Made by a program: the position numbers and the translations under genes. Shown in pieces: positions 3,605 to 36,095 of a stretch of DNA of 39,161 nt (within the stretch, counting starts at the first letter, position 1; every line of letters starts with the position of its first letter). Below the pieces are notes generated by a model that searched no databases, had not been told where the DNA came from, and worked only from the letters and a program-made list of their open reading frames with translations. The DNA comes from a virus (Duplodnaviria > Caudoviricetes), in IMG/VR virus record IMGVR_UViG_3300007988_000038, positions 1 to 39,161 of that record; one strand, 5' to 3'.

Positions 3605-3606
3605 AC

Positions 3607-9775: not shown

Positions 9776-9841
9776 TAAATTCTCCGGTTCAATCACTGTT
9801 ATTTGCCCCGATCGCACCGGGCGAGCGGGAGGTTTCAGCGA

Positions 9842-10749: not shown

Positions 10750-13700
10750 TTATTTCCTCTCATTCCATGTGCTTGACGTATGAATGATGTCTTCCACCTT
10801 ACGGCCGTCAGGAAGTTTCTTGATCCCACGGGATGTGAAGCTCTTGATAATTTTCTGCCGTTCGGAAGCCGAATTGGCCACGATATATTCAATGTTGTCC
10901 AGCAGTGTTACTGAATACTTGAAGATGGTTTCATTGCTGCTTTTGCCCGAAAACTTTTTCCAGTCATCGATATTGTTTCCACGATTCTTCCGGACGTAAT
11001 CATCCACTACTTTGCCATAGGCGTCATGGCCGTAACTGATAGCATCCATGCGCCGTAGCATGCTCTTTTTGAAATAGAGCGCCGGAGAAGCATCACGACT
11101 TGGATTTTTCTGGATACGTGTGAAGAAATAACTGGCACCACCGCTTTGCATATCCGCTACCGGTGACATACCGCCTGGAGGGATACCCATTCGCATTTTT
11201 TCTACGGTGCTGGCCATTGCGCCATTGTTTTCAAGAATGGTTTCAACAAAATCAGACATACCTTCGCTATTGGTCAAGCGATGGACCAGAGAGTAATCCT
11301 TCATTTTCTTTTCCAGATCCTCCTCAGTGATATCGAACCGGTATTGGTGTCGATACCCACCTTTCAAACCACGATCGAGAAATCCGGCCTGATACGCTCC
11401 CATGGGGTCGTAATCCGGCAGCTTGGTAAGGTCCTCGACATTCAGTTCCTTCTGCCAGAAACCACGGAGCGTCTGCACCCGCTCATTTACGGATGCATCG
11501 CGATCGTCGAGCCTTTTTTGAAGCCGCTTGTATTCAGCGGTGTGATCCACTTTTCGAATGTACGCCATTTTTTCCAGATACATCTGCTCGGCATTTTCGG
11601 GGGAAGAAACCCGCGCATCTATCCCGAGTTTCTCCAGTTTGGTCATCAGGGCTTCGACCTTCTTGCCACTGGCATCACCGTCGACCACGATCTCCAGCTC
11701 GCCCCGCTGGGCATAAAGGTTTGAATTATCCCATGGGCGGTATTTCAGACGCGTGCCGTCATCAAATTCAGCGGTGAATTGAAGGCCGTCCTGCATCCTC
11801 GAGTCACGATTGAACATGGCATAATTATCGATGTCATCCATCTCGACGGTTATCTTGCCGCTGCTGATCCGCCTCTTGGTGTGAGTGACCTTGCCTTTAG
11901 TGACCTTGAAATCAGGCTTCTTGGGCTTGGCCGTTTTCGGCAGTTCTGGGAGATACTGCTCTAAGACACCGTTGGTTGCACGGTCCCAGTCGACCGCTTC
12001 TTTGATTTCATCCAGCCATTTGATATAGCCGTCAGCCATCTTTTTGATTTCCGGATCTTTGCTTCGGGCGAGCACAAGCAGTCGGGTTCTCAGTTGTTCG
12101 GCTTTTCCCAATTTTGTCCGGTTATAGTTCCCATCGCCGACATGGAAGTTTACGTTTTTCACTGCATCCAGAATGGTCGGGAAAAAGGTGTCTTCCTCCA
12201 GGGGCTGGCCTTTTTTAATTTCAACAAGGTCCAGCTGTTCCCGAAGCAGGTCCGTGATTTTAGAATCCGTATCCGGCCGGATCTTCATTTTAACAACTGT
12301 GCGCTGCTTACCTTTGAAGGATTCTGTAAATATGAGGGCGTTCTGATCTTCGACATCACCACTGTCAAATGGCAGGGTTTTTCCCTGCCATCCAAGTTTT
12401 CCGGCATCATCGATGATTCTTTCATCCGCTTCCTGCAGCAGCTTCTTTATCCCGGGCTTGGCCTGCAGTGACGAGAACCTGAAGTCTTTCCGGCCTAAAA
12501 CCTCTCCGTAGTATCGCTCGAAATCATTCCGCAGATCATGTTTTCGTTGAAGTGTCTGCTCATAGAATTTATCCAGCCCGATTTTGTCTTTTCCAAAGCG
12601 CCCCTCGGCATATGGCCGGATGATATCGAGATAAGCCTCGTCGGATATTTTTTCGACTTCCTGAATGTATTTCAGGGAGCCCTGAGGATCGAAGTTGACC
12701 TTGCCTTCCTTGGCCGCCCTGAAGACCTTGTTGTAAAAAGGCTCCTCTTCGCCAAAGGCGCTGTTGGGATGATAATCCAGAGAAAGGCGATCTTTCCCGA
12801 GATGCTTGAAAGCCTGCCCCTTGTCAATGCCATAGACATGACCATTTCTTCCCCGGATAAACTGCTTTGAGTGTCCATCATGATTAGCGACAAGCCAGTC
12901 GATGACATGCTCACGCTGTAGCTGTTCGATCTCAACGGTGGTCAGATTCTCCGGCAGTATGTTTTTGAAATCGATTTCTGACTTCAGATCCGTTCGCCAC
13001 TTTTGGATGGAACCTGTTCTGCCGTTCAGCTGGATGGTCCTCACTTCGATTGCGTCCGGGTCAATCAGCCGACCGATCTTGTATGCGGCTTCTTCTCCTT
13101 GGGCGATAAAATTGTCCTTGGAGTTGCTGGCTGGTTTGAACAGCCATTTGTCGCCATTTTCATCGGTCCAAAACTCTTTTTCATGTGCTCCGCCGACATT
13201 CGCCTTGCCGGACTTATTGAATTTCCCGGCTGCGGATTTTTCATTCCATTTCTGATCGGCGCTTTCAAACTCAGAGCCTTTCTGGACAAAGGACGGCGGT
13301 TTGGTTTTGGGTTCAACAGGTGGCTTAGGTGGTTCTTTTTTTTCCTTTACAGGAGATGGCTTCGCCTTTTTGCCACCGTGCTTTTCAGCCCATTTCTGCC
13401 ATTTGCTCTCGATATTCGATTGCGCTTCTCCGATCTTTCCCGGATCGGTTTCGGTAAAGAGCGTGACGAGATCGTCCTTGCTTGCCCATTGCCAGTGTTT
13501 CAGCTGTGTCTCCTTGGCAATGGATTTGAGTTCCGACGATTTGAGTTTGGCAATCTGATCCTGAAAAAGCTGCTTTTTCAGAGCAATTTCCTTGGCGTGC
13601 CCGACAAGCAGTTCCTGAGGCAGATCTTTGGCCGATGCCAGAGCTTTTTCTGCATCGGAGATCTGGCTGATAAAATTGCTGTAATCCAGCGGTGATTCCG

Positions 13701-15321
13701 GAAGCTGAACTCCGGCCGCAGCCTTTTCGACCAGCTCTTTCTGTTTTTTCACCAGGAGCTGTTTTGCTTCATCCGCCGCTATCTTTTTGGCTGATTCAGC
13801 CAGATCCGTTCCGGCTTTTTTCTGCAGTGCATCAACGAGCTGTTGTTTATTCTTCAGGATGCCGATTCCGTACTGCTTTTTCTTTGCCAGCAGTTCCTTT
13901 CCTTTCAGGGATGTGTGGTCAATTCCCGGCTCGAGCTTGTCCAGCAATTTGATGGTCTCCTGTTTGGTCATATTCAGGGAAATGCCGTTGTTTTTGGCCA
14001 TTTCTTTAAGCTGGGATACCGGCATACCCTCGAGTCCTTCCACCTGTGGAAGTTTGGACATCTGCTGGGCAATGAGTTTTGCCTGTTTGAGTTCAGCCTG
14101 CTTTTGAGCCAACAGCCCGATCAGGTCTTCCTTTGTCCGGAGCAGACCGATTTTGTGTTCCTTGAGCTTTGCCTTCAGTCCGGCCCCTGAAAGCGTGCTG
14201 TGGTCAATGCCCGGTTCTGCCTGATCGAGTAGTTTGATGAAGTCGGCTTTGGTGCGGGCAATGGAAATGCCGTTCTCTTTTGAGAGGGTCTGGAGCTGCT
14301 TTACGGTGAGTGCTGTAAGGTCATCGGCGCTTCCGTTCTCAAATGCCTCCTTCAGTTTGATGCTCTCTTTTGCCTGCGCATCCGCCATTCCTTCCAACGC
14401 ATGCGGGGGCAGTATACAGGCATCGCCCTGTGAAGCCTTGGGTGCCGCCTGTGCAGACAGATCGGAACCACAAATGCTCATGGGCCACGCGACAATATTT
14501 GTACAACGGCAATGGGGATGCGCTGGCTGTTGCGGGAATTTATCGATGGGAAATGTCTTACCGTCGAGAGGACCACATACCGGACAGGTTCTCTCGTCAT
14601 TCATGGCCATCCATTCAAGCTTCTGAACGCCGACGCGCTCATGAAATTTAAGCCGCCCCATGTTGTGTGCCCGTAACACCTCAGTCCGGGCAATCATTTC
14701 CATGCGGTACTGAGCCTTGCTGAACACTCGGCTGCCAGCCTGCCTGAAGGAGTCCTTATCGATGATGACCTTGCCAAGGTCGCGGACAATATCATCCGCA
14801 CCTTTACCCGTGGCTATACCGCTCAGGATCGTTCTCTTTATCCCATCCGACAGTTCACGGTGAACATCCCCGGCAAGCGTCAGATTGTATTGCGTCATGA
14901 AGTCGAGGGCATTGGTATCGACTATGGAGAACACCTTGGTGGCCAGTTTATCGATACCTTCAGGCTTCAGGTCGGCATAGAATGGCAGTGACGCGGATGT
15001 CAGTTCGGTAATGCCCTGAGCGATGCCGCCCTTGAAGGCGTCCTTGGTGCTTTTGCGGAAAACAAGCGTCTGGTTCCGCTTTAACTGGCGCAAAACATCA
15101 TCCAGCTCGCCTTGCAGCTTTTCCAGACCTTTCAAAGCTGCCAGCTTGTTGTCCGGCAAAGAGCCGAGAGTGCGATATTTCAAAATGGCCTGCGCAACTT
15201 CCTGTTCAGCCTTGTTGAGAGACTGAGTCAGTTGCGCTGTAATGGAATCGTTGTAGCGATTTCGGGATTTCAGGCTCTTGAGTGTTGCTGCCTGAATGCG
15301 TTCTTTGAGATCAGAAGGCAT
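10750..15321 (-). CDS. MuF (SPP1 gp7-like) minor head protein with HeH repeats, HipA/PI3K-like kinase domain and C-terminal enzyme-like domain
   Basis: MuF motifs IARTEVLRAHN...W...DERTCPVC...PAHPHCRC; repeated LTVKQLQTLSKENGI..TKADFIKLL units; kinase-like GGAHEK..WLFKP..EEAAY..DWLVANHDGH..IDKG. Confidence 0.85.
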   Translation of the reverse strand: MPSDLKERIQAATLKSLKSRNRYNDSITAQLTQSLNKAEQEVAQAILKYRTLGSLPDNKLAALKGLEKLQGELDDVLRQLKRNQTLVFRKSTKDAFKGGIAQGITELTSASLPFYADLKPEGIDKLATKVFSIVDTNALDFMTQYNLTLAGDVHRELSDGIKRTILSGIATGKGADDIVRDLGKVIIDKDSFRQAGSRVFSKAQYRMEMIARTEVLRAHNMGRLKFHERVGVQKLEWMAMNDERTCPVCGPLDGKTFPIDKFPQQPAHPHCRCTNIVAWPMSICGSDLSAQAAPKASQGDACILPPHALEGMADAQAKESIKLKEAFENGSADDLTALTVKQLQTLSKENGISIARTKADFIKLLDQAEPGIDHSTLSGAGLKAKLKEHKIGLLRTKEDLIGLLAQKQAELKQAKLIAQQMSKLPQVEGLEGMPVSQLKEMAKNNGISLNMTKQETIKLLDKLEPGIDHTSLKGKELLAKKKQYGIGILKNKQQLVDALQKKAGTDLAESAKKIAADEAKQLLVKKQKELVEKAAAGVQLPESPLDYSNFISQISDAEKALASAKDLPQELLVGHAKEIALKKQLFQDQIAKLKSSELKSIAKETQLKHWQWASKDDLVTLFTETDPGKIGEAQSNIESKWQKWAEKHGGKKAKPSPVKEKKEPPKPPVEPKTKPPSFVQKGSEFESADQKWNEKSAAGKFNKSGKANVGGAHEKEFWTDENGDKWLFKPASNSKDNFIAQGEEAAYKIGRLIDPDAIEVRTIQLNGRTGSIQKWRTDLKSEIDFKNILPENLTTVEIEQLQREHVIDWLVANHDGHSKQFIRGRNGHVYGIDKGQAFKHLGKDRLSLDYHPNSAFGEEEPFYNKVFRAAKEGKVNFDPQGSLKYIQEVEKISDEAYLDIIRPYAEGRFGKDKIGLDKFYEQTLQRKHDLRNDFERYYGEVLGRKDFRFSSLQAKPGIKKLLQEADERIIDDAGKLGWQGKTLPFDSGDVEDQNALIFTESFKGKQRTVVKMKIRPDTDSKITDLLREQLDLVEIKKGQPLEEDTFFPTILDAVKNVNFHVGDGNYNRTKLGKAEQLRTRLLVLARSKDPEIKKMADGYIKWLDEIKEAVDWDRATNGVLEQYLPELPKTAKPKKPDFKVTKGKVTHTKRRISSGKITVEMDDIDNYAMFNRDSRMQDGLQFTAEFDDGTRLKYRPWDNSNLYAQRGELEIVVDGDASGKKVEALMTKLEKLGIDARVSSPENAEQMYLEKMAYIRKVDHTAEYKRLQKRLDDRDASVNERVQTLRGFWQKELNVEDLTKLPDYDPMGAYQAGFLDRGLKGGYRHQYRFDITEEDLEKKMKDYSLVHRLTNSEGMSDFVETILENNGAMASTVEKMRMGIPPGGMSPVADMQSGGASYFFTRIQKNPSRDASPALYFKKSMLRRMDAISYGHDAYGKVVDDYVRKNRGNNIDDWKKFSGKSSNETIFKYSVTLLDNIEYIVANSASERQKIIKSFTSRGIKKLPDGRKVEDIIHTSSTWNERK

Positions 15322-16945: not shown

Positions 16946-18472
16946 TTAAATAAAGACCGGGTTGGTCAGGACCGGTTTGAGATACACGGTCTCTTCACCG
17001 GCAAAATCGAGGTTGCCTTGCTCCCGAATAAGCATGGCACAGCGAACCGCGTCGATGATGTGGTCGTTCCCTTTGGAGTAGATAATCTTGCCGTCCCGCA
17101 GGGTGTAGGTCTGGGTGGTGAACTGGTCCTCGATTTCCAAATCGTCTGAGGGGAAGATGATCTGTTTGCGCTGAAGGGAACCGTTGATCAGGCTGGTCAT
17201 CAATTCCTTTGTACGCTTTTTGATTTCCTTGCCGTCGCGGACGGTGAGCCGGGTCATGCCGCCGAAGTCAAAGCCTTTCAATCTGCCTTCAAGTTCCAGC
17301 TCTTTGTATTTGTCGAGGGTCAGCAGTTCCTGAACCACGGCCAGACCGTTACCGCCATTGTCCACGCCAATACCAGCCGGGGTGAAATAGCGTTCAAGCA
17401 GCGCTATGGTCTGGGCAATATGCGGATACGACACATGCTCCATATGAATCCGCAGGATAAGTTTCAGGAAACTGCGATCACCCACCTCGGCTTCCTGAAA
17501 AACAACCAGCTCGGTTGGGTCATTTGTATATCCAAGATCGCCACCGATCCAGAACAGCCCGGTGCGAGGAGTGAGGTTGAGCAGCAGTTCGAGCCGGTCA
17601 TAGGCGGCTTCCTCCGTCTCACAATCGCGTAGCTCGGTATCGGTAATGGTGACCTTCTGATATTCCAGCAATTCCTGTCGGCAGAGATTGAACTGCTCGA
17701 CATTGAACGTTCCATAGGAAGGCTTCCCGTGTTCTCCGGCAACCTCATGCTGCCAGCCGGAGGTGTCTTTGCCTCCATAAAATTCCAGCAGCTCTGATTC
17801 ACGTTCGTCAGTCCAGAATGGATTGAACCAAGAGGCCCAGCGGAACACCTTGAACTGTTCCGACATGGTCAGTCGATAGTAAGTCGTGTTTCGCAGACCG
17901 TTGGGAGTGGAGTAGATTTTCAGGCGGCCACCTGTTTTCAGGCATTGCCTGAGCGCCTTCCATGCACGCTCGGAAAGCCACGCGCCTTCATCTACCCAGA
18001 CTCGGTCCACATGAAGTGAGCGGAATGCATCGCCATACGCACCGGCCGGACGGAAATAGATCACCGAGCCATTGGTAAACTCCAGCCGGAAGTATGGCTT
18101 CCGGGTAATTTTAGGTTTGCCGTATTTCGAGAGAGCAATGCTGTTCATCAAATCTTCATTGTGGTCCAGCTGGTACTCTATTTCCTCGATAACTGTATCG
18201 AGATGTCCCTGATGAGGAGCAGCAATCAAACCCCTCCCACCTCGAGTCGTGAAGGCATAGTGCAGTGCATCTGTCGAAAGCACAATCGACTTGCCAACGT
18301 CACGACCATCGAGGTGGACAATGTTTTTATGGGAACACCTGAGGTCTTCCTTCTGGTGCCCCCAGTATGACCGTACCGAACCGTCCCGGTTGTAGAGATA
18401 CGCCTGTCCCCACAAGACCGGGTCACGGAGTGTTTCAGCCAGCCTGCGCTCCTTATCAGAGACACCCATCAA
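16946..18472 (-). CDS. terL: Terminase large subunit
   Basis: Walker A-like GRDVGKS, Walker B VWVDEG, coupling motif YSTP, nuclease motifs GGDLG..DPT and NDHIIDA. Confidence 0.92.
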   Translation of the reverse strand: MMGVSDKERRLAETLRDPVLWGQAYLYNRDGSVRSYWGHQKEDLRCSHKNIVHLDGRDVGKSIVLSTDALHYAFTTRGGRGLIAAPHQGHLDTVIEEIEYQLDHNEDLMNSIALSKYGKPKITRKPYFRLEFTNGSVIYFRPAGAYGDAFRSLHVDRVWVDEGAWLSERAWKALRQCLKTGGRLKIYSTPNGLRNTTYYRLTMSEQFKVFRWASWFNPFWTDERESELLEFYGGKDTSGWQHEVAGEHGKPSYGTFNVEQFNLCRQELLEYQKVTITDTELRDCETEEAAYDRLELLLNLTPRTGLFWIGGDLGYTNDPTELVVFQEAEVGDRSFLKLILRIHMEHVSYPHIAQTIALLERYFTPAGIGVDNGGNGLAVVQELLTLDKYKELELEGRLKGFDFGGMTRLTVRDGKEIKKRTKELMTSLINGSLQRKQIIFPSDDLEIEDQFTTQTYTLRDGKIIYSKGNDHIIDAVRCAMLIREQGNLDFAGEETVYLKPVLTNPVFI

Positions 18473-18747
18473 TTCATTCCTTTGCGGATGGCAACCCCAA
18501 GAACGGATGAGACTAGCTCTGTGAGGATCTGTTGAACCGCCAATGTGTTCGTCCTGTTGGCGACAGCTTCCTCGATATCCAGTATGGCCTGATCAAGTTC
18601 CTGCCATTCAATGTATTTTTGCTGAGCGGCTTCCATACGCTCGAAAGCGTCGTCTATGCGACCGGCCGCCAGTTCAGAGCCGATGTCGACCAATGCCTGA
18701 CCTGCTTCCCGGATCGCTTCGCTGTTTTGTTCGAGTATTTCTTTCAT
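18469..18747 (-). CDS. Hypothetical helical protein
   Basis: 92 aa; ATGA overlaps on both sides; GGAGG RBS. Confidence 0.7.
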   Translation of the reverse strand: MKEILEQNSEAIREAGQALVDIGSELAAGRIDDAFERMEAAQQKYIEWQELDQAILDIEEAVANRTNTLAVQQILTELVSSVLGVAIRKGMN

Positions 18748-19016
18748 TGTTCATTGTCCTCCGGATTTGTGTTCGCCCAGTTATCCAGTGAATCAATGGC
18801 TTTCTGCAGACGCAGCCCGATTCCGACCAAACGCTCCGCATCCGGGTGGTTGTATTCAACCAGAGCCTTATTTGCTTCCCGGACATATTCCGGGGTGTAG
18901 CGGTTCAGGGTGGATGTGGCCGACTGAATCTGCTCAGGCGGTCTGTACGTGGCGCAGCCAGCAACCATACCGGCCAGCGTCAATGGGATTACCCATTCGA
19001 GTGCTTTCTTTAACAT
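18744..19016 (-). CDS. Small lipoprotein
   Basis: Signal peptide MLKKALEWVIPLTLAGMVAG-C with lipobox VAGC; AAAGGAG RBS. Confidence 0.75.
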   Translation of the reverse strand: MLKKALEWVIPLTLAGMVAGCATYRPPEQIQSATSTLNRYTPEYVREANKALVEYNHPDAERLVGIGLRLQKAIDSLDNWANTNPEDNEQ

Positions 19017-19071
19017 GTTGCGCTCCTTTGATTTAGGGTTGTTTTATTAATGCAGAAAAATCTCTGCAAAC

Positions 19072-19102
19072 ACTTGATTTCCAAGAGGATATAAGCGTCA
19101 TT
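19072..19102 (+). promoter_or_regulatory. Second motif ACTTGATT-N14-AGCGTCATT, upstream of tyrosine recombinase cassette
   Basis: Same boxes and spacing as the minus-strand copy at 35853-35883. Confidence 0.55.
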
Positions 19103-19156
19103 GGACATGACGCGGGACGGTCCCGCAGAACCATAAACCGAAGCAGGAGACGACCC

Positions 19157-19351
19157 ATGAAACAGGTAAAAAACAGTGACGACGCCAGAACCGCCTACAA
19201 AAAGCGCCAGGACAACATTGCTGAGTACATCCAGCGGATTCAGAAGAAGCTGGCCGCAGATGCCGGGCAGGCGAATATCAACTGGGCTCACGTGGGATCG
19301 CTCGGGCACGTCGAAGAGCTGCTCCAGCAGATCGATGAGTTTCTGGGTTAA
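19157..19351 (+). CDS. Small hypothetical protein (INWAHVGSL motif)
   Basis: 64 aa; CAGGAG RBS; first gene of the + strand cassette. Confidence 0.7.
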   Translation: MKQVKNSDDARTAYKKRQDNIAEYIQRIQKKLAADAGQANINWAHVGSLGHVEELLQQIDEFLG

Positions 19352-19384
19352 GGAACCGGCTTCACAAACAAAGGAGTTAATGCC

Positions 19385-19756
19385 ATGACAGAGATGACCA
19401 TTCATGAAACCACTGCCGCCTTCATCAACCATCTTCGGGACAACGGCAAAAAGGAGCGCACGCTCTACACCTACCGGAAGGACCTCGACCTCATCGAGGG
19501 ATACTTCGGCAAGAACAAGATGCTTCAGGAGTTGAGAATCACTCAGGTTGGGAAGTTCCTCAAATGCGATACGCTTCTGAAACTCGGAAATGGTAATGCC
19601 CGGGCCGAGAGAACCGTTGCCAAGACCATCCGGGTCTTTCGGATGATGCTTGTCTGGGCCAAGGAGTCCGGTTTTATCGATGAGCTCCCGCTGCCCAAAA
19701 GCACCCCGATGGGACACAGCAAGCAGACGGAGGTGACCGATGCCGAACAGCAGTGA
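19385..19756 (+). CDS. Stand-alone integrase core-binding (SAM-like) domain protein
   Basis: FINHLRDNGKKERTLYTYRKDL...ERTVAKTIRVFRMMLVWA; no catalytic domain. Confidence 0.75.
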   Translation: MTEMTIHETTAAFINHLRDNGKKERTLYTYRKDLDLIEGYFGKNKMLQELRITQVGKFLKCDTLLKLGNGNARAERTVAKTIRVFRMMLVWAKESGFIDELPLPKSTPMGHSKQTEVTDAEQQ

Positions 19757-20648
19757 TCGACTGGAAGCGGCCATAGAGCGATTCTGTGCCCACTTGTCGG
19801 CCGAAAACAAAGCAGCAGGGACAGTGACCGCATACCGGCGGGATCTGCGACTGGTGGCCTGTGTGGCCGAATCCTTCCAGCTCGGACTCTGCTGCCAAGA
19901 TGTGACACCCGGTCTGCTGGATCGGGCTCTATCCTCACCGCAGCTTTTGACCACGAACTCGGGAACAAGGTCACCGGCATCGATCCACCGTTTGAAAGCG
20001 GCGGTCCGTTCATTCTTTGCATGGACAACGGATGCCGGGCTTACATTTGAAAACCCGGCCCGATCCGTTCGCATGAAAAGGCTGGCGCAGAAGCCGCCGG
20101 TATTCCTGACGGCTTCTGAAAAGAAGGTACTGCTGAAAGAGGTGAAAAGTCGCGTGGGGTTTTCAGACATGAGGGATCGGGTAATGATCGAAGTCCTGCT
20201 CGGAACCGGCATCCGTATCGGTGAGCTGGAATCTCTGGACACGGATGATATTGACCTCGATGCCAAGCATCTGAGAGTCAGAGCCAAGGGGAATGTGGTG
20301 CAGGTCAAGTTCATAAAAACCGACCTCCGCATATTACTGAAAAGGTATCTGAAAGAACGATCCCGGCAAAGCACAGTACAATGCAGCCCACTGTTTCTTT
20401 CCAATAGAGGAACACGTCTTTGCCAGCGGCAGATTGCCAACCGGATAGCCTTGTGGCTGAAGAAGGCTGGTATTGAAAAGAACCTGACTCCGCATGGCCT
20501 GCGGCATACCTTTGCAACCCACCTTTACGGGGCCACCAGTGACCTGCTTGTCGTGCAGAGGGCGCTGGGGCACCGGGATATTTCAACGACTCAAATCTAC
20601 ACCCACCTTGTTGATGGGCAACTCGAGGATGCCCTTGAAAGGCTGTAA
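19740..20648 (+). CDS. XerC/D-family tyrosine recombinase
   Basis: Full catalytic set: GIRIGE (R), AKGN (K), HGLRH, LGH, TTQIY (Y). Confidence 0.93.
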   Translation: MPNSSDRLEAAIERFCAHLSAENKAAGTVTAYRRDLRLVACVAESFQLGLCCQDVTPGLLDRALSSPQLLTTNSGTRSPASIHRLKAAVRSFFAWTTDAGLTFENPARSVRMKRLAQKPPVFLTASEKKVLLKEVKSRVGFSDMRDRVMIEVLLGTGIRIGELESLDTDDIDLDAKHLRVRAKGNVVQVKFIKTDLRILLKRYLKERSRQSTVQCSPLFLSNRGTRLCQRQIANRIALWLKKAGIEKNLTPHGLRHTFATHLYGATSDLLVVQRALGHRDISTTQIYTHLVDGQLEDALERL

Positions 20649-20671
20649 CATCAGTGTTCACCCGAACATCC

Positions 20672-20696
20672 GGAGCGGCTCCTGCTGCTCCTTTTT
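20672..20696 (+). terminator. Intrinsic terminator after tyrosine recombinase
   Basis: GGAGCGGC-TCCT-GCTGCTCC-TTTTT. Confidence 0.65.
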
Positions 20697-20723
20697 CATT
20701 CTCGGGGCGCGTATTCGAATTGC

Positions 20724-20840
20724 TGTATATGGCGTTATGCGCACACAAGGCCATACAGTCCACTTTGGGATTTATTGCGTTATGTGCGCATAAGCCAATA
20801 AAGTTGATTTTCTTGTGTATGGTTTTATGCACACAGGATT
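20724..20840. repeat. Three imperfect palindromic repeats at 45-bp period
   Basis: TTATG cores at 20735, 20780 and 20825; the best copy is TTTATTGCGTTATG-TGCG-CATAAGCCAATAAA. Confidence 0.7.
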
Positions 20841-20903
20841 GGAGGAAGCTGATGCTGAACCGATGGTTCATACCCGCCGTTCGAGAAATTTTATTTAACT
20901 GAA

Positions 20904-20931
20904 ATTTCCGGGAACATGCCTTATCTGAAAT
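20904..20931. other. dif/lox-like recombination core site (11-6-11)
   Basis: ATTTCCGGGAA-CATGCC-TTATCTGAAAT; arms are 8/11 inverted; right arm resembles the XerD arm TTATGTTAAAT. Confidence 0.5.
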
Positions 20932-20959
20932 TCCTGTCATCGAGAGCCTCCATAACTGC

Positions 20960-21496
20960 CTAATCCTTCGCACTCTTTCTTTTTGAGGCTCCGGTGTTAT
21001 TTGAACTTTTTTTCGGCTTTTTCACGGAAGCGGTCCTCTGTGCGGCGGCCTCGCTCACTTTTTCGAGAAGAGCGGAGGCCCATTCAGCCGGTGAAGTCTG
21101 CGGACCTTTCGGCTCTTCACCCTCGCGGGAAATCTTGGTGGTCTTAAGATCCTTCATGTGGCAGCGGATCATCCGGTCGAGACTCTCGGCCGCCTGTGTG
21201 TTGCCTTCGACCTGTGCCCGGACCAGCTTCACCGAGTAGATGCCCACCAGCTCGACCTGCAGGAAGTCACTTGATTTGTTGAACTGGAAGTCCTCGTGCA
21301 GCTTTTCAATGATGCTGTCGAACATGACCTTTTCTTCCGGAGTCAGGCAGCGGTCGGCAAAGATTCCGTGTTTGAGGGTTTGAAGGTTGCCCTGCATGGA
21401 TTCAGCTTTGTTTTTCATGGCCTCGGAGTGTTCGGTTTTACCCTCATTCCGATGCCATCGGTCCAAGCTGCTTTTGTCTGTTTTAGATACCGCCAA
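20960..21496 (-). CDS. terS: Putative terminase small subunit
   Basis: GNLQTLKHGIF motif, helical, upstream of terL; TTG start with GGAG RBS. Confidence 0.6.
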   Translation of the reverse strand: MAVSKTDKSSLDRWHRNEGKTEHSEAMKNKAESMQGNLQTLKHGIFADRCLTPEEKVMFDSIIEKLHEDFQFNKSSDFLQVELVGIYSVKLVRAQVEGNTQAAESLDRMIRCHMKDLKTTKISREGEEPKGPQTSPAEWASALLEKVSEAAAQRTASVKKPKKSSNNTGASKRKSAKD

Positions 21497-21584
21497 GGCT
21501 TATCTCCGGTTCTTCATTTTCGTTTTGCTAAGTCGGGGTTCGGGGCGGAAGGCAGATTTAGCCCGTTTTCCCGAACCACAAACC

Positions 21585-21615
21585 TTACATACCGGAAGAG
21601 TCCTCAACCTGTCGG
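21585..21615 (-). promoter_or_regulatory. Motif copy 4 (upstream of terS; overlaps end of upstream gene)
   Basis: + strand TTACATACCGG aagagtcctcaacct GTCGG. Confidence 0.7.
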
Positions 21616-21860
21616 GCGTCGGTTTCCTTTCTGTGGTCCGCGAGAATCTGATTGACCCTACGACGTGTGATACCGGCAAGGCTGGCAATTTCATCGGTTT
21701 CGATTCTCTGACTTTTAAGAGCAATGACCAGTTGTCTGCGTTCTTTGTAAAAGCTGCCCGGTGCGGGAATCCAAAGGATGCCGGAATGATGTTTCTGCAC
21801 TTCCTTGAGAAGCTCTCTCGGGAGGATGTGTTCGGCATTGGCGTATTTCTTAATGCTCAT
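21585..21860 (-). CDS. Mor / CD3324-like HTH transcription regulator
   Basis: YANAEHILPRELLKEVQKH..GILWIP followed by HTH TDEIASLAGITRRRVNQIL. Confidence 0.65.
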   Translation of the reverse strand: MSIKKYANAEHILPRELLKEVQKHHSGILWIPAPGSFYKERRQLVIALKSQRIETDEIASLAGITRRRVNQILADHRKETDARQVEDSSGM

Positions 21861-22638
21861 GATTGTTCTCCACTTTCTTCAGCCACGGCTGCGGAACATC
21901 CGGGTTATGAAACCTGAGCGTGCTGGGACGCGGAGTTTCCGGGCTGTGGATAATTTCGATATTCTTTTCTGTTACGGCACCAATCTTTCGATCACCGCCG
22001 ACAAAGCAGACCAGTCCGTAATCCTGACCGCAGGGGAACCGATATCGTCCCTGATTCTGGTAAAGCCTGGCTTCAGACCATTTCTTGGACATGGCTTCCT
22101 CCTTGATTGCATCAACTTTGGCCAATGCTTCCGCACTGACTTGCTCTATACAATTCCAAGCTTCTTCTGGCGGATAAATCCAGTTGTTCTTGGGAGGTTC
22201 TGCAGGTTTCTCAGGTTTTGCCGGAACATGGCGGGGAGCTGGGTAATTCTGCGGGCTAAGCTGGCGGGATGCCTGCTGAAGAGCTTCTTTGCCGAATTGT
22301 TGAACCGCGTATTCCTGAAGAGGATTGAACCTGCTTTTCAGGCCTTCCCATGTTGATTCGGGAAGTTTTCCGGCTTTGAAGGCGGACTGGGCTGCCAGCA
22401 TGCGGGATCGGAGCCATGCGAAATACTCCGGCTCGAGACGTCGATAGATTTTGCCGTTGTATTCCACATCGCTGGCGGACGTAACAGCCCACTCGAATCG
22501 TGCGGTCTCCAGATCGGTGGATACGAAAAGATCGGGCTCCGGTGCGCTGCTGTCATTTTCAGTTGGCTGCGGAGCTTGTTGGGAAGGCTCACTCTCTGGG
22601 GAATCGAGATGCGTGAGCATGGTTTGTAAAAGGCTCAT
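21850..22638 (-). CDS. Hypothetical protein
   Basis: 262 aa; GGAGG RBS; overlaps the next gene. Confidence 0.7.
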   Translation of the reverse strand: MSLLQTMLTHLDSPESEPSQQAPQPTENDSSAPEPDLFVSTDLETARFEWAVTSASDVEYNGKIYRRLEPEYFAWLRSRMLAAQSAFKAGKLPESTWEGLKSRFNPLQEYAVQQFGKEALQQASRQLSPQNYPAPRHVPAKPEKPAEPPKNNWIYPPEEAWNCIEQVSAEALAKVDAIKEEAMSKKWSEARLYQNQGRYRFPCGQDYGLVCFVGGDRKIGAVTEKNIEIIHSPETPRPSTLRFHNPDVPQPWLKKVENNHEH

Positions 22639-22676
22639 GGGTGACCTCCGGAATTTCGGGTTTATTTTTCTTCCCG

Positions 22677-22707
22677 TTACTTACCGGAGCCGGACCATGT
22701 GTGTCGG
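22677..22707 (-). promoter_or_regulatory. Motif copy 5
   Basis: + strand TTACTTACCGG agccggaccatgtgt GTCGG. Confidence 0.75.
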
Positions 22708-22710
22708 ATG

Positions 22711-23031
22711 GTAGAAAGCGTAGAAAGTGGTTTCTACGTTCAGGGACCTTTCTACACCCCCTTTCTACATCTCTTAACAGTAGTAATAGCAGTTAGTTAT
22801 ATATGTTTTTGTAGAAAGTGTAGAAAGGTATAGGAATATTACTCACGCATAGCCCGATTTTTTTATGCATGCCATTCATCCAATAAATTGAAAAAATGAA
22901 CAGTAAGGGGGAGTGACCTCTGAAATCTTTCTACACTTTCTACGCCCGCCACGTAACGCCATAAATAACAGTGAGTTGCGCTGTAGAAAGGTGCTCTCTG
23001 GACATTCTACATTGTAGAAAGGTCTTTCTAC
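22711..23031. repeat. Putative replication origin with about 13 GTAGAAAG/CTTTCTAC iterons and AT-rich spacers
   Basis: Copies at about 22711, 22720, 22731, 22748, 22761, 22811, 22820, 22927, 22936, 22983, 23004, 23014 and 23024, in both orientations; non-coding region downstream of the primase-helicase. Confidence 0.75.
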
Positions 23032-23127
23032 ACCGGCGGCCTTTGTAACGATTTTACCAGCCAGTGGCTAATTTCTAATCGTATTACCGACTGGATAACT
23101 GTTTCGCCAGAATCTGCCGGGGATATA

Positions 23128-23159
23128 AACAAAAAGCCCGCAGAGATGAATCCACGGGC
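23128..23159 (-). terminator. Intrinsic terminator after primase-helicase
   Basis: Minus strand GCCCGTGGA-TTCATC-TCTGCGGGC-TTTTTGTT. Confidence 0.6.
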
Positions 23160-23186
23160 CTGACTGGGAATGATATGGAGGGTAGT

Positions 23187-26100
23187 CTATTCGACTGATT
23201 GAATGGTATAGAGCTTGGTTCCGTAGCGTTTCTGGCTGATGACGACATCAAATCCGGCTCCACGGATGGTTTCGAGGTCGTTGGCAAAACGCTGGGCAAA
23301 CTGTCTTGATGAATCCATTTCAAAGCGCAGACCGAAATCTCTGGCCACACGCTTGAGCGCCACGAACAGCTCCCGGGACAAGACCTCCTTGAGGCAGCCG
23401 TCTTCTTCAGGCTGCACCTGATAGCGGGCAACGAACTCCTGAATGTGATCCACCCGGCGATCGTTGTACATATCTTTCCGGTCGGCCTCCACGGCTGTTC
23501 GCCATGCCTTGAACAATGTCGAGAGCGCCGTTGCGGTGTGATTGGAATCCCGTGCCGTTTCACGACTGGTCTGGTTGATGGTCTGGATCTGCTGTTTGAA
23601 GGCTGGAGCCAGAGTCGACATTCCCTGTTCGATCTGATCCTGAGATGATCCGGCCAGCAGCATCAGATACATCAGGCTGAGATATTCGTTGCAGCGCCGT
23701 TTGTCATGGTTGCCAAGGGCCTCATGCAGCAGCTTCATGGCCTGTGTTCGCATCCCGTCTTTCATCATGGCCAGCACCTCGCTGGTTCGTTTCATCAGAG
23801 CGGAAATGATCAGATCCCGGTTGCGCTGTATGGCGGCAATAACATCCGATTCAATGAAACAGTCGTTGCCCTGATTATCGATATCGAAATTGACAACAAA
23901 ACTCCGGGACTGAATTTCGGAAAGCTCACCACATAAAGGCTCGATGCCGGTTGTGTTGAGCAGACACTTGGTCCGCTCGGTCACGGTTTCACTGTCCGTT
24001 CCGCTCTTGCGCTTCTCCTTAGCAATCCCGGTGATGCTGGTGAGCATGAAGGTCGTTAGCTCCTCGCTCATTTGCCGGACCTCGATGTTGTCGAGGACAA
24101 TAAGCGGGTTCTGGGAACCGTCGGTGTAGTTGGCAGCATCGGTGGCTTTCTTATGCTGAGGTTCTCCGTACAACAAAGCAGAAATGATTTTACTGGCCGT
24201 GGTCTTACCCGATCCGGCCGAACCTTCAAAACGGGTCATGGGTCTGGTTCCGGAGAAATCGATCAATAGGAAACATGTCAACCATGACAAAATAAGAAAC
24301 CGGTCTCCCTGTGAGCAGGTCATATTATTAATCAAAAAATCAACCAGTAGTTTGTCAGCTTCCTCCGGAGAGGCATCTTTCAGGAATTTGAGTGGCTTCA
24401 TCTTGCGGGAACCATCCAGAATGATCCCGTCAGCGTTTCCACCGTTCTTCAGAATCTCGATGCCGTCGGGTGTGATCCGGGCAATTTCATGGTCCTGATT
24501 GTTCAGGTTGAAGTAAACGGTGTAATTGGAAATATCTGTGTGCAGCCACGAGAAATGGTCACGGACCTGTCCGCGAATCATAGCCAGACTGGGTAACACC
24601 TCAAAAAAAGTGCGACCACCATTGGAAGTGGGAACCATGCCTGTATGCTTGTAGAGCATGGCTGCATACTGCCTTTTGCGCCCCCGATCGGGTGAATCCA
24701 TCCAGTAAATGGAGTTGTCGAAATACATGAATGGCTCGCCGGTCTGGGTGTAAAAAAACTGGGCTCCGTTGGCCGAAAACCAGTCATAGGCAGCTTCGGC
24801 TGCAGCGGTGTAATCCGGTGCGCCATTTTCAATTTCTGTATCGATCAATACTTCATCGACGCGCCCACGGCATGAGCCCGGCGGTGATCCGCTGAGACGC
24901 TTGGCCTTCTTCTTTTCCTTTTTGGCATTGTCTCTTCGGTTCTGTTGAACAGAACGAACCTGTTCTTTCAGCGTCGCCATTGGAACTGATTTACCAAGGC
25001 GTTCCTGAACCAGTTTCAGCAGGCGACTTTGCTCCAGTGGTGAGTGGGCTGAAATTTCGGCCAGAACCGGCTCAAGCTGGCGATTTCTCTCTTCCTCTGG
25101 GGCATCCTCAGGCAGACTTTGAATGCCGAACTCCACCGGCGTAAAGGCCGCTGACAGCAGCTCCTGAAATTCGGCTTTGCCATTGCCCGATGCAAAGAAG
25201 TCGTTTACATCAATCTTGGCGTTGGCCAACAGCGTTTCGGCATCCCGGATTTCCTCGGCAGAATGGCCTTCGAGCAATTTGGCCAGCTCCCGGGGACCAA
25301 CTGCCGCAGTCAGATTAAACCGTTCCTGAAGTTCATGACGTGCCTGCTGTTGGGGTTCATTCAGAGGAATGGTAACCAGTTTCGTATCAATCTTGTGTTC
25401 GGCCAGTGTTCGTGCAGTCTGTAAAGCTCCCTTGAGCCCGGCCTCCGAAATTTCATTGTCCTGACAGATGTAGACGGTTTTGAGGCCGCGCATCTTCGGG
25501 ACCAGACGCTCCCAGTCTGCCGCTCTGATTCTTACCGTCACAGGTGAGAGCGCAGTAAAGTCCTGCTGCATCAGAGCGATGCAATCGGTCACGCCTTCGG
25601 TAATGATGATTTGATCGGGCTTACCCAGCAGGCAGTCCTCATTGAAGAGAACCGCATTGTTTATGAACCGGGCAATATAAGGACGCTGATGTTCATCGTG
25701 AACCGGAAGCTTTTTATACTTTCCCTGTTCCCAGTTTGCATCTGGTGTCCACGGTGTCTTTCGGCCGATCATGAACACAACACGCCCACGGCTCCAGTAT
25801 GGAAAGATGATGCGCTTTTCAAAAAACGGATTCAATCCATCCTGACTGGTCGGGCGAAAGGCTCCCGTTGCTGAAAGTTCCCGTTTGCTGAATCCGTTAT
25901 TTCCTGAGCGCAGGGCAGCAATGACACCGGACTCATTGTCGGCAAAACCAATCAACAGGTCGTCGATGGTCTCATCACTGATGGCGTACTTTTCTTTCAG
26001 CCAAGTCAGCGCTTCCTGATTTGCCTTGAGCCGCTGGTGATAGTAGCGGGCCAGCTCGGTCAGGGCATCTTTAACCCGGATCTCAAAGGAACGATCATTT

Positions 26101-33309: not shown

Positions 33310-33729
33310 TCAGCAGAATCCAAAGAACGTTCGCTGCTCACTCCAGTCGAGCGGGAATGTTTTCACCAGCTTTGACAGTGAGAGTCCGCTGGGCTCTTCA
33401 CCGTTAATGATGGCTTCGACAATGTCCGGGGCGAGAGTGGTCAGCTTCAGGGTTCTGGCCACGTAGGATGAATCCACATCGAGATCCCTTGCCAGTTCGC
33501 TGATAGACTTTATCTCGCCGCTCTCAAGGATGTCCGCCCATGAATAGGCTCTGGCCAGTGACTGAACGATGGCTGTTTGAACCGTTTCCGGCATCCCTTC
33601 ATTTTCACCGTCCAGCGTATCTGGAGTGAACACCATTTTCCGGCCGCGCATTCTTCGTATGAACATGGGGATATGGATGTGCAGATTCCCGCTGTCAGAG
33701 AGTTTGATAGTTGGTTTAATTTTTTTCAT
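33310..33729 (-). CDS. Serine-recombinase-associated HTH protein
   Basis: SISELARDLDVDSSYVARTLKLTTLAPDIVEAI..G...PLDWSEQ; coupled to the recombinase stop. Confidence 0.75.
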   Translation of the reverse strand: MKKIKPTIKLSDSGNLHIHIPMFIRRMRGRKMVFTPDTLDGENEGMPETVQTAIVQSLARAYSWADILESGEIKSISELARDLDVDSSYVARTLKLTTLAPDIVEAIINGEEPSGLSLSKLVKTFPLDWSEQRTFFGFC

Positions 33730-35312
33730 CAGCTGTTACCCCTTTCCCTGACTTCACAGGCCAGACCGGCCAGCTCGGTGACAAGATTTGTGAGGCCGTT
33801 TGTTTTCAGCTCCATATCGATTCCCGTTTCTCTGATCTCGATGGTTTCAACCAAAAGTTGGATCAGCCGGTTGCGCTCGAGCGGGAACAGGTCCTCCCAG
33901 AAGGTTTCCACGCTCTGGAATGCCTCGGATACATCACCCTCTGATATCAGCTCTGTATCGATGACCTTCAATCGGGCTGATACATTGGTGAGCTGCTTGG
34001 TCAAATCAACCGCCTGCTGATTGACCAAGGGCAGTCGACTGTTCCGGCCAGGATCATCATTGTCAGGCGACATAAGTTTCAATGCCTCCTGTCTCACATT
34101 CTGAAGCGACTGTTCGAGTTCTTTTTTCTGGGCCTGCAGGCGCTGCCGCTCTTCAGCCTCTATCTCTCTGGCGGCAAAGTAGGTTTTAGCCACCAAGGTC
34201 GGTGTTCTGAACACGGCACCGAGTTGCTCGAGCACCACGGACTCGATGTCTCCGGCTGGAACTCGCTTCAATGGACATCGGCTGACAGCACGTTTGGTGT
34301 CCTTTTCACATATATAATAGGAGTAGCGCCGGTCGCCTTTGTTGGTATAGGTGATGCCCATGGCGCTATCGCAGTGTCCGCATCGGATTACACCACTCAA
34401 AGGGGAGACCATTTTCACCCGGGCCTTGCTCATCTTGGTTCGATTGTTTTCAGATAGAAGGGCCTGAACCTTGTCCCATGTATTTTGGTCAACCAGCGCT
34501 TCATGTTCAGCCGGGTAGTTGTTCTCTTTGTAAGCAATCTCCCCGATATAGAGCCTGTTGTTGAGAAGGCGGTACACCTGAGCCGTATTCCATTCGGTTC
34601 CGACCCGTTCTTTTTTCTTCTTGGTGGTCCATGATTTGGTTTTGTATCCTTGCTCGTTGAGTTCCTGCGCCACCTTCTTGGCCGATCCCACCTGCGTGTA
34701 TCGCCTGAATATGAGTTTCACCAGCGGGGCCTCGCTCTGGTTGATCAGCAGTTTCTTGTTTTCACGGTCCACGTCATAACCGAGAACAGCAGGTCCGCCA
34801 CAATATTTTCCACGGCGTTTTGCGGCGGCAACCTTGTCCCGGATACGTTCACCGATGACCTCCCGTTCGTACTGGGCAAAGGTGATCAGGATTCCCAGAA
34901 ACATTCGGCCCGTCGAGTCTGTGGTACCGAAATGCTGGGTAACTGATACGAAGCTCACTTCCTTTTCGTTAAAGAGCTCGATCATCTTCATGAAATCCAG
35001 CAGTGAGCGGGACAGTCGATCGACTTTGTAAACGACGATGACATCGATCTTACCGTCATCGATATCAACCAACAGCCTTTGAAGTGCCGGACGTTCCATG
35101 CTCCCGCCGGAAAATCCGCCGTCATCGTATCGGTAAGGGATGGCTCTCCAGCCCCGAAGCTTCTGACTTTCAATGTAGGCTTCGGCCGCCTCTCTCTGTG
35201 CGTCGAGTGAATTGAATTCCTGCTCCAAGCCTTCCTCGTGACTTTTTCTGGTATAGATGGCGCACCGAAGCGTCTTGCATTGGCCATTCTGGGTATTGTT
35301 GTTATTAAGCAT
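33729..35312 (-). CDS. Large serine recombinase
   Basis: CAIYTRKS, SLDAQRE, DDGGFSGG..ERPALQ, YKVDRLSRS; recombinase domain; zinc ribbon CGHC...YYIC. Confidence 0.93.
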   Translation of the reverse strand: MLNNNNTQNGQCKTLRCAIYTRKSHEEGLEQEFNSLDAQREAAEAYIESQKLRGWRAIPYRYDDGGFSGGSMERPALQRLLVDIDDGKIDVIVVYKVDRLSRSLLDFMKMIELFNEKEVSFVSVTQHFGTTDSTGRMFLGILITFAQYEREVIGERIRDKVAAAKRRGKYCGGPAVLGYDVDRENKKLLINQSEAPLVKLIFRRYTQVGSAKKVAQELNEQGYKTKSWTTKKKKERVGTEWNTAQVYRLLNNRLYIGEIAYKENNYPAEHEALVDQNTWDKVQALLSENNRTKMSKARVKMVSPLSGVIRCGHCDSAMGITYTNKGDRRYSYYICEKDTKRAVSRCPLKRVPAGDIESVVLEQLGAVFRTPTLVAKTYFAAREIEAEERQRLQAQKKELEQSLQNVRQEALKLMSPDNDDPGRNSRLPLVNQQAVDLTKQLTNVSARLKVIDTELISEGDVSEAFQSVETFWEDLFPLERNRLIQLLVETIEIRETGIDMELKTNGLTNLVTELAGLACEVRERGNS

Positions 35313-35817
35313 TCGGACCACCTTCCTTTTTTCTATGACTGCTCTTCAGACCGAAAAAGATCTTTCCATTCCAACGGGTGCCGGTAATTTCCCTTGCTAT
35401 GGCGCTTAAGGATCTGAAAATGCGGCCGTCATACTCGAAGCCGTTTTCCCGGGCGATCACTTCATAGCGATGGTCGTTCCAGATCCGGACAAAGCGAGTG
35501 CCCGACAGGATAGCCTCCTGTGATTTCCGTTCCTCCGGGATCTTGCGGATTACGGTTGCAACCGGATCGGTTTCGGAAATTTTCTTTAGGTGTTTTTTTG
35601 CCTGCTCCGACAGACCTCCATAAAAGAGTTCCTGAATACGGTGCGCCAGCCGTTTCACCAGAAACTGCTTCTTGTACTGGGGTGGTTCGGTTCCATAAAG
35701 ATCCAGCCATTTCTCTTTGAGCTGATCAAGGCTCATACTCTGGAGCGTGGCCAATTGCCTCAACACCGAGGTCTTGGTCGGCTCCATGTTTTTGTTTTTC
35801 AAGTCATTCATTTTCAA
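35305..35817 (-). CDS. DUF2924 family protein
   Basis: LAHRIQELFYGGLS...GTRFVRIW...SLSAIAREITGTRWNG..FFGL. Confidence 0.88.
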   Translation of the reverse strand: MKMNDLKNKNMEPTKTSVLRQLATLQSMSLDQLKEKWLDLYGTEPPQYKKQFLVKRLAHRIQELFYGGLSEQAKKHLKKISETDPVATVIRKIPEERKSQEAILSGTRFVRIWNDHRYEVIARENGFEYDGRIFRSLSAIAREITGTRWNGKIFFGLKSSHRKKEGGPNA

Positions 35818-36095
35818 CTCCTTATATTCGAATACAGGACTCGGTTGTCATGAATGACGCTCTTTCTCGCAGAAGAATCAAGTCCTTCTCTGAAGGTTCC
35901 GGAAAAATCTGCAATATTCTTTAAGTTATTGGCATTATTGCCCTTACGATACCGACTTCTGAGGGCGGCAATGGCCAGAATCGCTGCAATGGCATCCAGC
36001 CGCTGCTCCGGTGTAATACGCTCAGCATCCGGCAATTGGGCATCGGTTAACTGGTCTGAGTAAGGGTTTTCGGGTGCTAATTCCACATCAAGCAT
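35814..36095 (-). CDS. Small hypothetical protein
   Basis: Likely ATG at 36095 (GGAGG RBS); ITPEQRLDAIAAILA; stop overlaps the DUF2924 ATG. Confidence 0.5.
   Translation of the reverse strand: MLDVELAPENPYSDQLTDAQLPDAERITPEQRLDAIAAILAIAALRSRYRKGNNANNLKNIADFSGTFREGLDSSARKSVIHDNRVLYSNIRS
35853..35883 (-). promoter_or_regulatory. Second motif ACTTGATT-N14-AGCGTCATT, upstream of DUF2924 / serine recombinase
   Basis: Matches the copy at 19072-19102. Confidence 0.55.

What the first reader, a model, noticed from the sequence alone, without database searches (positions are those of the whole stretch)
19072..20931. Self-contained Xer-like module: recombinase, non-catalytic core-binding protein, accessory repeats and dif-like core
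Seen: a + strand cassette placed between terS and terL, encoding a 64-aa protein, a SAM-like-only integrase domain and an intact XerC/D-like enzyme, followed by a terminator, three palindromes at 45-bp period and an 11-6-11 site. Known: cer/psi use a core plus accessory sites bound by accessory proteins, and P1 Cre/lox resolves dimers. Inference: a phage-encoded dimer-resolution or circularisation system using its own non-catalytic paralog as accessory factor, separate from the serine recombinase.
Basis: partly seen in the sequence, partly recalled or inferred. Interest (0 to 1): 0.72.

Follow-up and report, generated by a model that had tools for sequence, protein, structure and literature searches.

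The report
Phage recombinase, truncated paralog, distant half-site
A widespread family of prophages keeps, beside its packaging genes, an intact Xer-like recombinase gene, a gene for only the DNA-clamp domain of such an enzyme, a conserved 28-base dif-like site and a copy of one arm 76 bases away, which together likely cut multimeric phage DNA into unit-length circles; the showy 45-base repeats are a lineage-specific extra.

Summary
The cassette is real and conserved. A stand-alone core-binding (CB) domain gene lies directly before an intact Xer-like recombinase in 152 of 158 distinct loci. The 11-6-11 core (20904-20931) recurs in 26 of 34 recombinase clusters against 0 of 34 in each control. 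The 45-bp repeats are not its conserved accessory sites: they are clade-specific, absent from 3 of 22 close loci, and the third is not a palindrome. The scan had reached these points twice on other DNA. Not in those note summaries: (i) a copy of the right arm 75-76 bp further on (20993-21007, inside terS) in 25 of 26 clusters, kept whichever way terS reads it, co-varying with the right arm; (ii) the same promoter-like word precedes this cassette and the serine-integrase operon. The site is single-copy and internal in integrated prophages, so integration and inversion are unlikely. Best reading: a TnpI/IRS-like, directional self-recombination system that makes unit circles from dimeric or terminally redundant phage DNA. 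Activity, the CB protein's role and pac position are untested. New variant of a known kind; interest 0.5.

The parts
19072..19102 (+). Promoter-like word (ACTTGATT-N14-AGCGTCATT) ahead of the cassette; function inferred
   Evidence: Conserved in related loci; exactly two copies in the window against 0.01 expected
19157..19351 (+). 64-aa protein, unknown function (phrog_14596); optional passenger
   Evidence: dN/dS 0.09 within the clade; seen ahead of CB in 13 of 36 clusters
19385..19756 (+). Stand-alone core-binding (SAM-like) domain protein, paralog of the recombinase's N-terminal domain, no catalytic domain
   Evidence: Fold Z 15.1; profile match 97.96%, E 3e-13; invariant basic residues K22 R25 R73 K80 R83 R86 in 54 of 54; 554 family clusters, best 150 are 68-295 aa
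19740..20648 (+). Intact simple (CB + catalytic) XerC/D-like tyrosine recombinase
   Evidence: below XerC and XerD equivalog cut-offs; six catalytic residues invariant in 29 of 29
20672..20697 (+). Terminator-like hairpin and T run
   Evidence: similar hairpins in relatives
20724..20835 (.). Three copies at 45-bp period; palindromes at 20726-20757 and 20771-20802; clade-specific; carry arm-like words
   Evidence: 19 of 22 loci of the window's cluster, none in the 23 distant clusters tabulated; arm-like score 9.3 bits
20885..20909 (.). A/T-rich dyad overlapping the core's left arm; in some clades 50-350 bp upstream; role unknown
   Evidence: Found in 15 of 32 loci by a loose pattern
20904..20931 (+). 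11-6-11 dif-like core, likely crossover site
   Evidence: 26 of 34 clusters at 12 bits or more, leave-one-out; 0 of 34 in each control; mirrored near-invariant positions 5/24, 10/19, 11/18
20993..21007 (+). Directly repeated copy of the right arm with GGTG in front, 76 bp from the right arm, inside the 3' end of terS; likely accessory site; T-tracts follow
   Evidence: 25 of 26 clusters at 75-76 bp, one at 64; null 5 of 5200; read by terS in three ways; co-varies with right arm
20960..21496 (-). Likely terminase small subunit (context)
   Evidence: 33 of 46 family members hit phrog_1889, best E 5e-8; the window's own protein does not
35853..35883 (-). Second copy of the promoter-like word, ahead of the DUF2924 / serine integrase genes
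   Evidence: kept in G003 and G004
33729..35321 (-). Large serine recombinase, likely the integrase (context)

Best explanation
The phage's intact Xer-like enzyme likely recombines two directly repeated copies of the 28-bp core on one phage DNA molecule and so would release a unit-length circle, with the conserved half-site 76 bp away and the catalytic-domain-less paralog predicted to make the reaction directional. Shown: the genes, their linkage, intact catalytic residues, purifying selection, the core, the half-site and its fixed spacing, one copy per prophage, internal position. Inferred: that the enzyme binds and cuts this site; that the half-site is accessory as DR1/DR2 are for TnpI; that the CB-only protein binds there or bridges the synapse; that the substrate is a replication dimer or the redundant ends of a first headful started in or near terS; that the step precedes integration by the serine integrase, with which the cassette shares a promoter-like word.
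For: CB gene followed at once by the recombinase in 152 of 158 distinct loci; the other 6 end within 210 bp. Catalytic residues invariant in 29 of 29. Core in 26 of 34 clusters, all on one strand, controls 0 of 34 twice; of the 8 misses, 2 have a 7-bp spacer, 1 a degenerate core, 2 a weak core 1.6-2.5 kb away. Spacer sequence varies between clades, as self-by-self recombination allows. Half-site at 75-76 bp in 25 of 26 and at 64, one helical turn less, in the last; right arm and half-site share changes (168 against 147.9 +/- 4.3 identities, 0 of 20,000 permutations, 19 loci). A blind scan for core plus half-site gave 81 viral loci, 69 with both genes; 2 unrelated prophages carry the same arm word directly upstream of another tyrosine recombinase, with no hit to this terS. 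One exact copy per genome, in the prophage, in 5 of 5; at least 20 and 44 kb from the ends of the stretch shared by G003 and G004. TnpI uses directly repeated recombinase-type motifs as a resolution filter (PMC2847244, passages).
Against: No activity, binding or junction was seen: no joint at the site in contigs of 4 runs. The site follows terS, not the recombinase: inserts of up to 2.5 kb lie between gene and core, and 2 loci keep the site without the genes (a deletion derivative and a truncated locus). Left and right arms do not co-vary significantly (p 0.09). Only one accessory-like copy exists, where TnpI has two. The phage encodes a Sak4-like annealing protein and an exonuclease that could circularise DNA without a site. 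The co-variation test is not corrected for kinship and the half-site was picked with the right-arm matrix.
Confidence: 0.55

Rival explanations
1. The core is the recombinase's site and resolution or circularisation is its job, but the CB-only protein is a damper or a general DNA-architectural protein: it competes at core or half-site to keep the enzyme quiet in the integrated prophage, rather than promoting synapsis.
For: A CB domain without a catalytic domain could occupy arms without cutting (inference). Distant family members carry long Lys/Ala/Pro-rich tails. Two prophages with cores can share one genome or contig (L009/L018; L162/L166), where unchecked recombination would rearrange the host.
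Against: The two genes overlap by 17 nt and sit behind one promoter-like word, so they are probably made together, which fits a partner better than a timed inhibitor.
Confidence: 0.2
2. The two direct repeats 76 bp apart are packaging signals (TerS binding or pac elements) at the terS end, and the neighbouring recombinase acts elsewhere or uses them secondarily.
For: The repeats stay at the terS 3' end while the recombinase drifts up to 2.5 kb away; right arm and half-site co-vary but the left arm does not; T-tracts follow.
Against: Mirrored near-invariant positions across a 6-7-bp spacer fit a tyrosine-recombinase core; the same word and spacing occur beside an unrelated tyrosine recombinase with no hit to this terS. 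I found no terS relative from a lineage that never had the module, so the clean control is missing.
Confidence: 0.12
3. The recombinase and its paralog act mainly as repressors at these sites, as MrpR does in SPbeta, controlling read-through from terS into the late genes.
For: MrpR has a tyrosine-recombinase fold and represses (PMC10516654, abstract); it and SroF appear among fold matches. The cassette interrupts the late genes.
Against: MrpR has lost recombinase function; here all six catalytic residues are invariant in 29 of 29.
Confidence: 0.07
4. The core is an attachment or gene-capture site: a second integration route, an inversion end, or a pdif-like cassette boundary.
For: Toxin-antitoxin and other inserts sit just left of the core, and some change the outer left arm.
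Against: Phage genes flank it on both sides in the loci with enough DNA; one strong copy in the window and one exact copy per host genome; spacers differ between clades; no second full core was found beside the inserts.
Confidence: 0.06

Closest known systems
TnpI/IRS of Tn4430
   Same: One simple tyrosine recombinase; inverted core plus directly repeated accessory motifs that share the core's word, within about 110 bp (IRS 116 bp; PMC2847244 passages).
   Different: Prophage, not a Tn3-family transposon; one accessory-like copy, not two; an extra CB-only gene that TnpI lacks; filter activity untested.
XerS/difSL and XerH/difH; XerCD/dif
   Same: Xer-like enzyme; 11-bp arms around a 6-bp centre as in E. 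coli dif; gene next to its site as in XerS/difSL (PMC5357621 passages).
   Different: Below the XerC, XerD, XerS and XerA cut-offs; inside a prophage; half-site and paralog have no counterpart in what I read.
cer/psi with PepA and ArgR/ArcA
   Same: Core plus accessory DNA giving resolution selectivity is the inferred logic.
   Different: cer/psi use host XerCD, about 180 bp of accessory DNA and unrelated host proteins; here the element encodes its own enzyme and the DNA between core and half-site keeps length, not sequence.
Cre/loxP of phage P1
   Same: Phage-encoded multimer resolution (PMC10999674 passage; PMC8138268 passage). Closeness of lox to pac and Cre-driven circularisation of injected DNA are recalled, not read.
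   Different: P1 is a plasmid prophage; these are integrated and carry a serine integrase; loxP has no accessory half-site and longer arms (recalled).
Tyrovirus gp50 and its 11-6-11 site
   Same: Xer-like recombinase inside a phage structural region with an 11-6-11 site right after it, function unknown (PMC9703825 passages).
   Different: Perfect repeats, read there as a putative attP; no CB-only partner or distant half-site in the passages seen.
RitA (two sequential CB domains)
   Same: An extra CB domain ahead of CB plus catalytic domain (PMC8138268 section 3 part 2).
   Different: Here the extra CB is a separate protein; no RitB/RitC trio.

Membership tests
Simple tyrosine recombinases (Xer-like) | CB plus catalytic domain, R-K-H-R-H and Y, no arm-binding domain | tested here: met
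XerC / XerD / XerS / XerA proper | Score above the curated family cut-off | tested here: not met
   211 vs 335, 194 vs 330, 107 vs 267, 184 vs 220 bits
Xer/dif modules | Two 11-bp partly symmetric arms around a 6-8-bp centre | tested here: met
   geometry from PMC5357621
Xer/dif modules | Host chromosome site outside mobile DNA | tested here: not met
   Exact matches only in the prophage in 5 of 5 genomes; internal
Xer/dif modules | FtsK-dependent activation | not testable with these tools
   Needs biochemistry
TnpI/IRS | Directly repeated accessory motif sharing the core word | tested here: met
   One copy at 75-76 bp
TnpI/IRS | Two accessory motifs (DR1, DR2) | tested here: not met
   Only one conserved copy within 140 bp downstream; none conserved upstream
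TnpI/IRS | Part of a Tn3-family transposon | tested here: not met
   Phage terminase, portal, primase genes flank it
TnpI/IRS | Two-noded catenane products, topological filter | not testable with these tools
   Needs in vitro assay
cer/psi | No own recombinase; host XerCD acts | tested here: not met
   Own recombinase in 152 of 158 loci; extra action of host XerCD not excluded
cer/psi | PepA and ArgR/ArcA dependence | not testable with these tools
   Needs genetics
Cre/loxP | Plasmid prophage with site near pac | tested here: inconclusive
   Relatives sit in chromosomes; pac not mapped; contigs show no ends
RitA / RIT | Tandem CB domains in one polypeptide, three recombinases | tested here: not met
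   Separate ORFs; 3 longer forms among 7995 candidates, none CB-CB-catalytic by Pfam
MrpR-type repressors | Loss of recombinase function | tested here: inconclusive
   Catalytic residues are intact, which argues against; activity itself not measured
Integrase CB (SAM-like) domain | CB-domain helical fold | tested here: met

The most novel reading that the evidence does not exclude
The CB-only protein is a dedicated accessory subunit that, with one recombinase protomer, builds a non-cleaving half-core on the repeat 76 bp from the crossover site. This would be a tyrosine-recombinase system steered by its own truncated paralog, tied to the packaging start so that injected DNA is circularised without host help, co-expressed with the serine integrase, and one reason this prophage family turns up in hosts of several phyla.
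Probability: 0.22. Interest if true: 0.75.

Novelty: new variant of a known kind. Interest (0 to 1): 0.5.

Why it matters
Accessory control of tyrosine recombinases is known through host proteins (cer/psi) or extra copies of the enzyme itself (TnpI). A separately encoded CB-only paralog with a fixed-distance half-site would be a third solution, small enough (two genes, about 110 bp) to test in one plasmid assay and perhaps to use as a directional recombinase. It also gives a testable job to a large unnamed family (322 clusters at E up to 1e-10) and to second recombinases in phages that already have an integrase. Four full-text searches found no description of such a module; the library lacks most subscription papers.

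Tried and rejected
Complex prediction of recombinase with CB protein: score 0.00, no verdict, no evidence either way. Rfam at gathering threshold: no RNA family in the window. Sigma-70 scan: 0 promoter-like sites in 18700-21600. Contigs of 4 runs laid on 17500-23500: no joint or end at the site; two runs may be the window's source, the two RNA runs cover 12 and 9 of 30 bins and show nothing on expression. No match of the CB protein in phage or plasmid records, nor of TerS in phage records; best recombinase matches there are about 30-35% identical. Sequence search of the CB alignment against solved structures gave nothing relevant; Foldseek had no match at E 0.001 though integrase CB domains ranked first. 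Contig ends do not pile up at the site. A first palindrome test was mis-centred and redone. Attempts to fetch DNA around the distant, long-tailed CB proteins found nothing, so their context is unknown. No terS lineage lacking the module from the start was found among 80 loci. The A/T-rich dyad has a weak look-alike near the repressor gene (36291; 3 matches, two of them the same dyad, against 0.34 expected; not found in G003/G004): not used. Rejected: 45-bp repeats as essential accessory sites; a frameshifted single gene; attP; inversion. A passage on P1 circularisation near pac was not found. No supplements were read.

Full report
Setting. The window is a whole 39,161-base virus record of a contractile-tailed temperate phage: tail, head, portal and terminase genes, a replication block, a large serine recombinase (33729-35321) and a LexA-like repressor. 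The cassette lies on the opposite strand to the late genes.

Observation. The three ORFs, the hairpin, the 45-bp array and the 11-6-11 site are at the stated places. Three points need correction. The third repeat is not a palindrome (10/32 against 24/32 and 26/32). The core's symmetry alone is not above chance. Two small genes separate the cassette from terL. The 178-aa gene is likely terS: 33 of 46 family members hit phrog_1889, though the window's own protein does not.

Proteins. The 302-aa enzyme is Xer-like, closest to XerD among solved structures (E 1e-31), below the curated cut-offs of all 13 NCBIfam families it hit. Its six catalytic residues are invariant in 29 of 29 intact ORFs; 7 of 36 cluster representatives were left out as broken, cut or without a start in range. 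The 123-aa protein folds as an integrase CB domain and matches the enzyme's own CB domain. It heads a family of 554 clusters whose best 150 members are 68-295 aa long. Of 30 mostly longer relatives scanned, one has a recombinase catalytic domain, and it reads as a CB/recombinase chimera. All three genes show dN/dS near 0.09 against 20-24 close relatives, pairs not independent.

Synteny. Searches gave 32 genome, 68 and 79 viral, and 80 metagenome loci. After removing duplicates, 152 of 158 have the recombinase right behind the CB gene; the other 6 end within 210 bp. Record titles span Desulfobacterota, Gammaproteobacteria, Phycisphaerae, Lentisphaeria, Kiritimatiellales and others, including cultured isolates. 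The 64-aa gene is seen in 13 of 36 clusters at 90% recombinase identity and is replaced or absent elsewhere.

Repeats. The window's palindromes occur in 19 of 22 loci of its cluster and in two clusters split from it, in none of the 23 others tabulated. A second clade has a different repeat in 0-4 copies by my pattern, and core distances shift in 45-bp steps. Three loci at 90-93% recombinase identity lack them and carry instead short ACAGT repeats seen also in distant clades. They are real but optional.

Core. A matrix seeded with the window's site alone found, leave-one-out, a match of 12 bits or more in 26 of 34 clusters with enough DNA, always on the same strand; 0 of 34 in the preceding gene DNA and 0 of 34 in shuffles. 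A few clusters are frameshift or truncation duplicates; 19 loci remain when near-identical DNA is merged. Of the 8 misses, two have 7-bp spacers, one a degenerate core, two a weak core 1.6-2.5 kb away beside terS, one is a deleted remnant, and two are too short for their clade. Near-invariant positions mirror each other across the spacer, but arm-to-arm co-variation is not significant (p 0.09). That the arms resemble XerC-type arms is recalled, not tested.

Half-site. A copy of the right arm preceded by GGTG lies 75-76 bp on in 25 of 26 clusters and 64 bp on in the last; random positions reach the lowest observed score 5 times in 5200. It lies at the terS 3' end, but terS reads through it in 15 loci, stops on it in 7 and stops before it in 9 of 31, so the constraint is on the DNA. 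It changes together with the right arm, not the left (kinship not corrected). The DNA between keeps its length but little sequence. A blind scan of viral contigs for core plus half-site gave 81 loci: 66 with both genes and terS, 3 with both genes and cut before terS, 5 cut on the gene side, 2 with terS and no genes (a deletion into terL, and a locus with a toxin-antitoxin insert that ends 1.9 kb on), 2 beside an unrelated tyrosine recombinase, and 3 identical A/T-rich matches with no hit, not followed up.

Position and copy number. The window has one strong core. Five host genomes each have one exact match, in the prophage, plus two weaker matches elsewhere in two genomes. In G004 the site lies 44 and 20 kb inside the stretch shared with G003. 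Integration and inversion are therefore unlikely. Inserts accumulate between recombinase and core, never between core and half-site in the loci seen.

Regulation. The word ahead of the cassette occurs exactly twice in the window (0.01 expected), the second copy ahead of the DUF2924 and serine-integrase genes, and is kept there in G003 and G004. Shared early expression is an inference from this.

Mechanism. I commit to directional self-recombination that yields unit circles (0.55). The layout matches TnpI/IRS, where directly repeated recombinase-type motifs impose resolution (PMC2847244, passages). Whether the substrate is a replication dimer or terminally redundant incoming DNA cannot be told here; the tie to terS favours the second only if pac lies there, which is unmapped. 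The CB protein may promote or restrain the reaction. No activity was observed.

Comparison and novelty. It works like TnpI/IRS and Cre/lox but fails membership of each, and of Xer/dif, cer/psi and RIT (membership table). A Xer-like gene with an 11-6-11 site inside a phage structural region is in print for Tyroviruses (PMC9703825, passages). Papers seen: PMC8138268 abstract, passages and one part of section 3; PMC2847244, PMC9703825, PMC5357621, PMC10999674, PMC11769102 passages; PMC10516654 abstract and outline; others as search listings only. Searches found no CB-only accessory module. The scan itself noted this module twice before, with the same verdict on the repeats; I tested those claims here. 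The half-site and the shared promoter-like word are not in the short summaries I could see. Verdict: new variant of a known kind, interest 0.5.

Noticed in passing
window 35853-35883 (-) and 19072-19102 (+): The same promoter-like word precedes the tyrosine-recombinase cassette and the DUF2924 / serine integrase genes; 2 copies against 0.01 expected.
   Followed up: partly
window about 22690-23050: Many TAGAAAG / CTTTCTAC words in an A/T-rich gap next to the primase gene, origin-like; assemblies of two runs break near 23030.
   Followed up: no
L373 and L381, about 3079-4100: Unrelated prophages carry a different tyrosine recombinase with a near-perfect 11-6-11 site, further arm copies and the same 76-bp half-site directly upstream of the gene, 1.6-2 kb from an HNH-like gene.
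   Followed up: partly
L001-L032: Prophages with 90-97% protein identity to the window occur in records titled as Gammaproteobacteria, Desulfobacterota, Phycisphaerae and Lentisphaeria; a sister clade occurs in isolates of two phyla. A very broad host range or binning errors.
   Followed up: no
L031, L211, L215, L225, L318, L047, L210, L248: The gap between recombinase and core collects inserts: AbrB-like plus Doc-like pairs and a nuclease-like gene; some junctions alter the core's outer left arm. Gene names are my reading of the sequences.
   Followed up: partly
L001:7262-7509; L007:7268-7696; L207: A second optional element after the terminator: two to four ACAGT words about 11-12 bp apart followed by GAACACA, in many clades but not in the window.
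   Followed up: partly
P0243 and L032: Chimeras that join the CB gene to the recombinase at their matching helix, likely deletions between the paralogs.
   Followed up: no
L162 and L166 (one 83-kb contig); L009 and L018 (one strain): Two related prophages, each with the module, in one contig or genome; L162 and L166 share the same spacer.
   Followed up: no
G004:C1 near 3601737; G003:C1 near 30822: The shared prophage stretch ends at an inverted repeat; in G003 two 21-bp words recur about 81 kb away, one resembling a tRNA/tmRNA end (identity recalled).
   Followed up: partly
window 10750-15321 and 7388-9817 (-): A 1523-aa MuF-domain protein with a long unannotated extension, and an 809-aa D12-type methyltransferase inside the head genes.
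   Followed up: no
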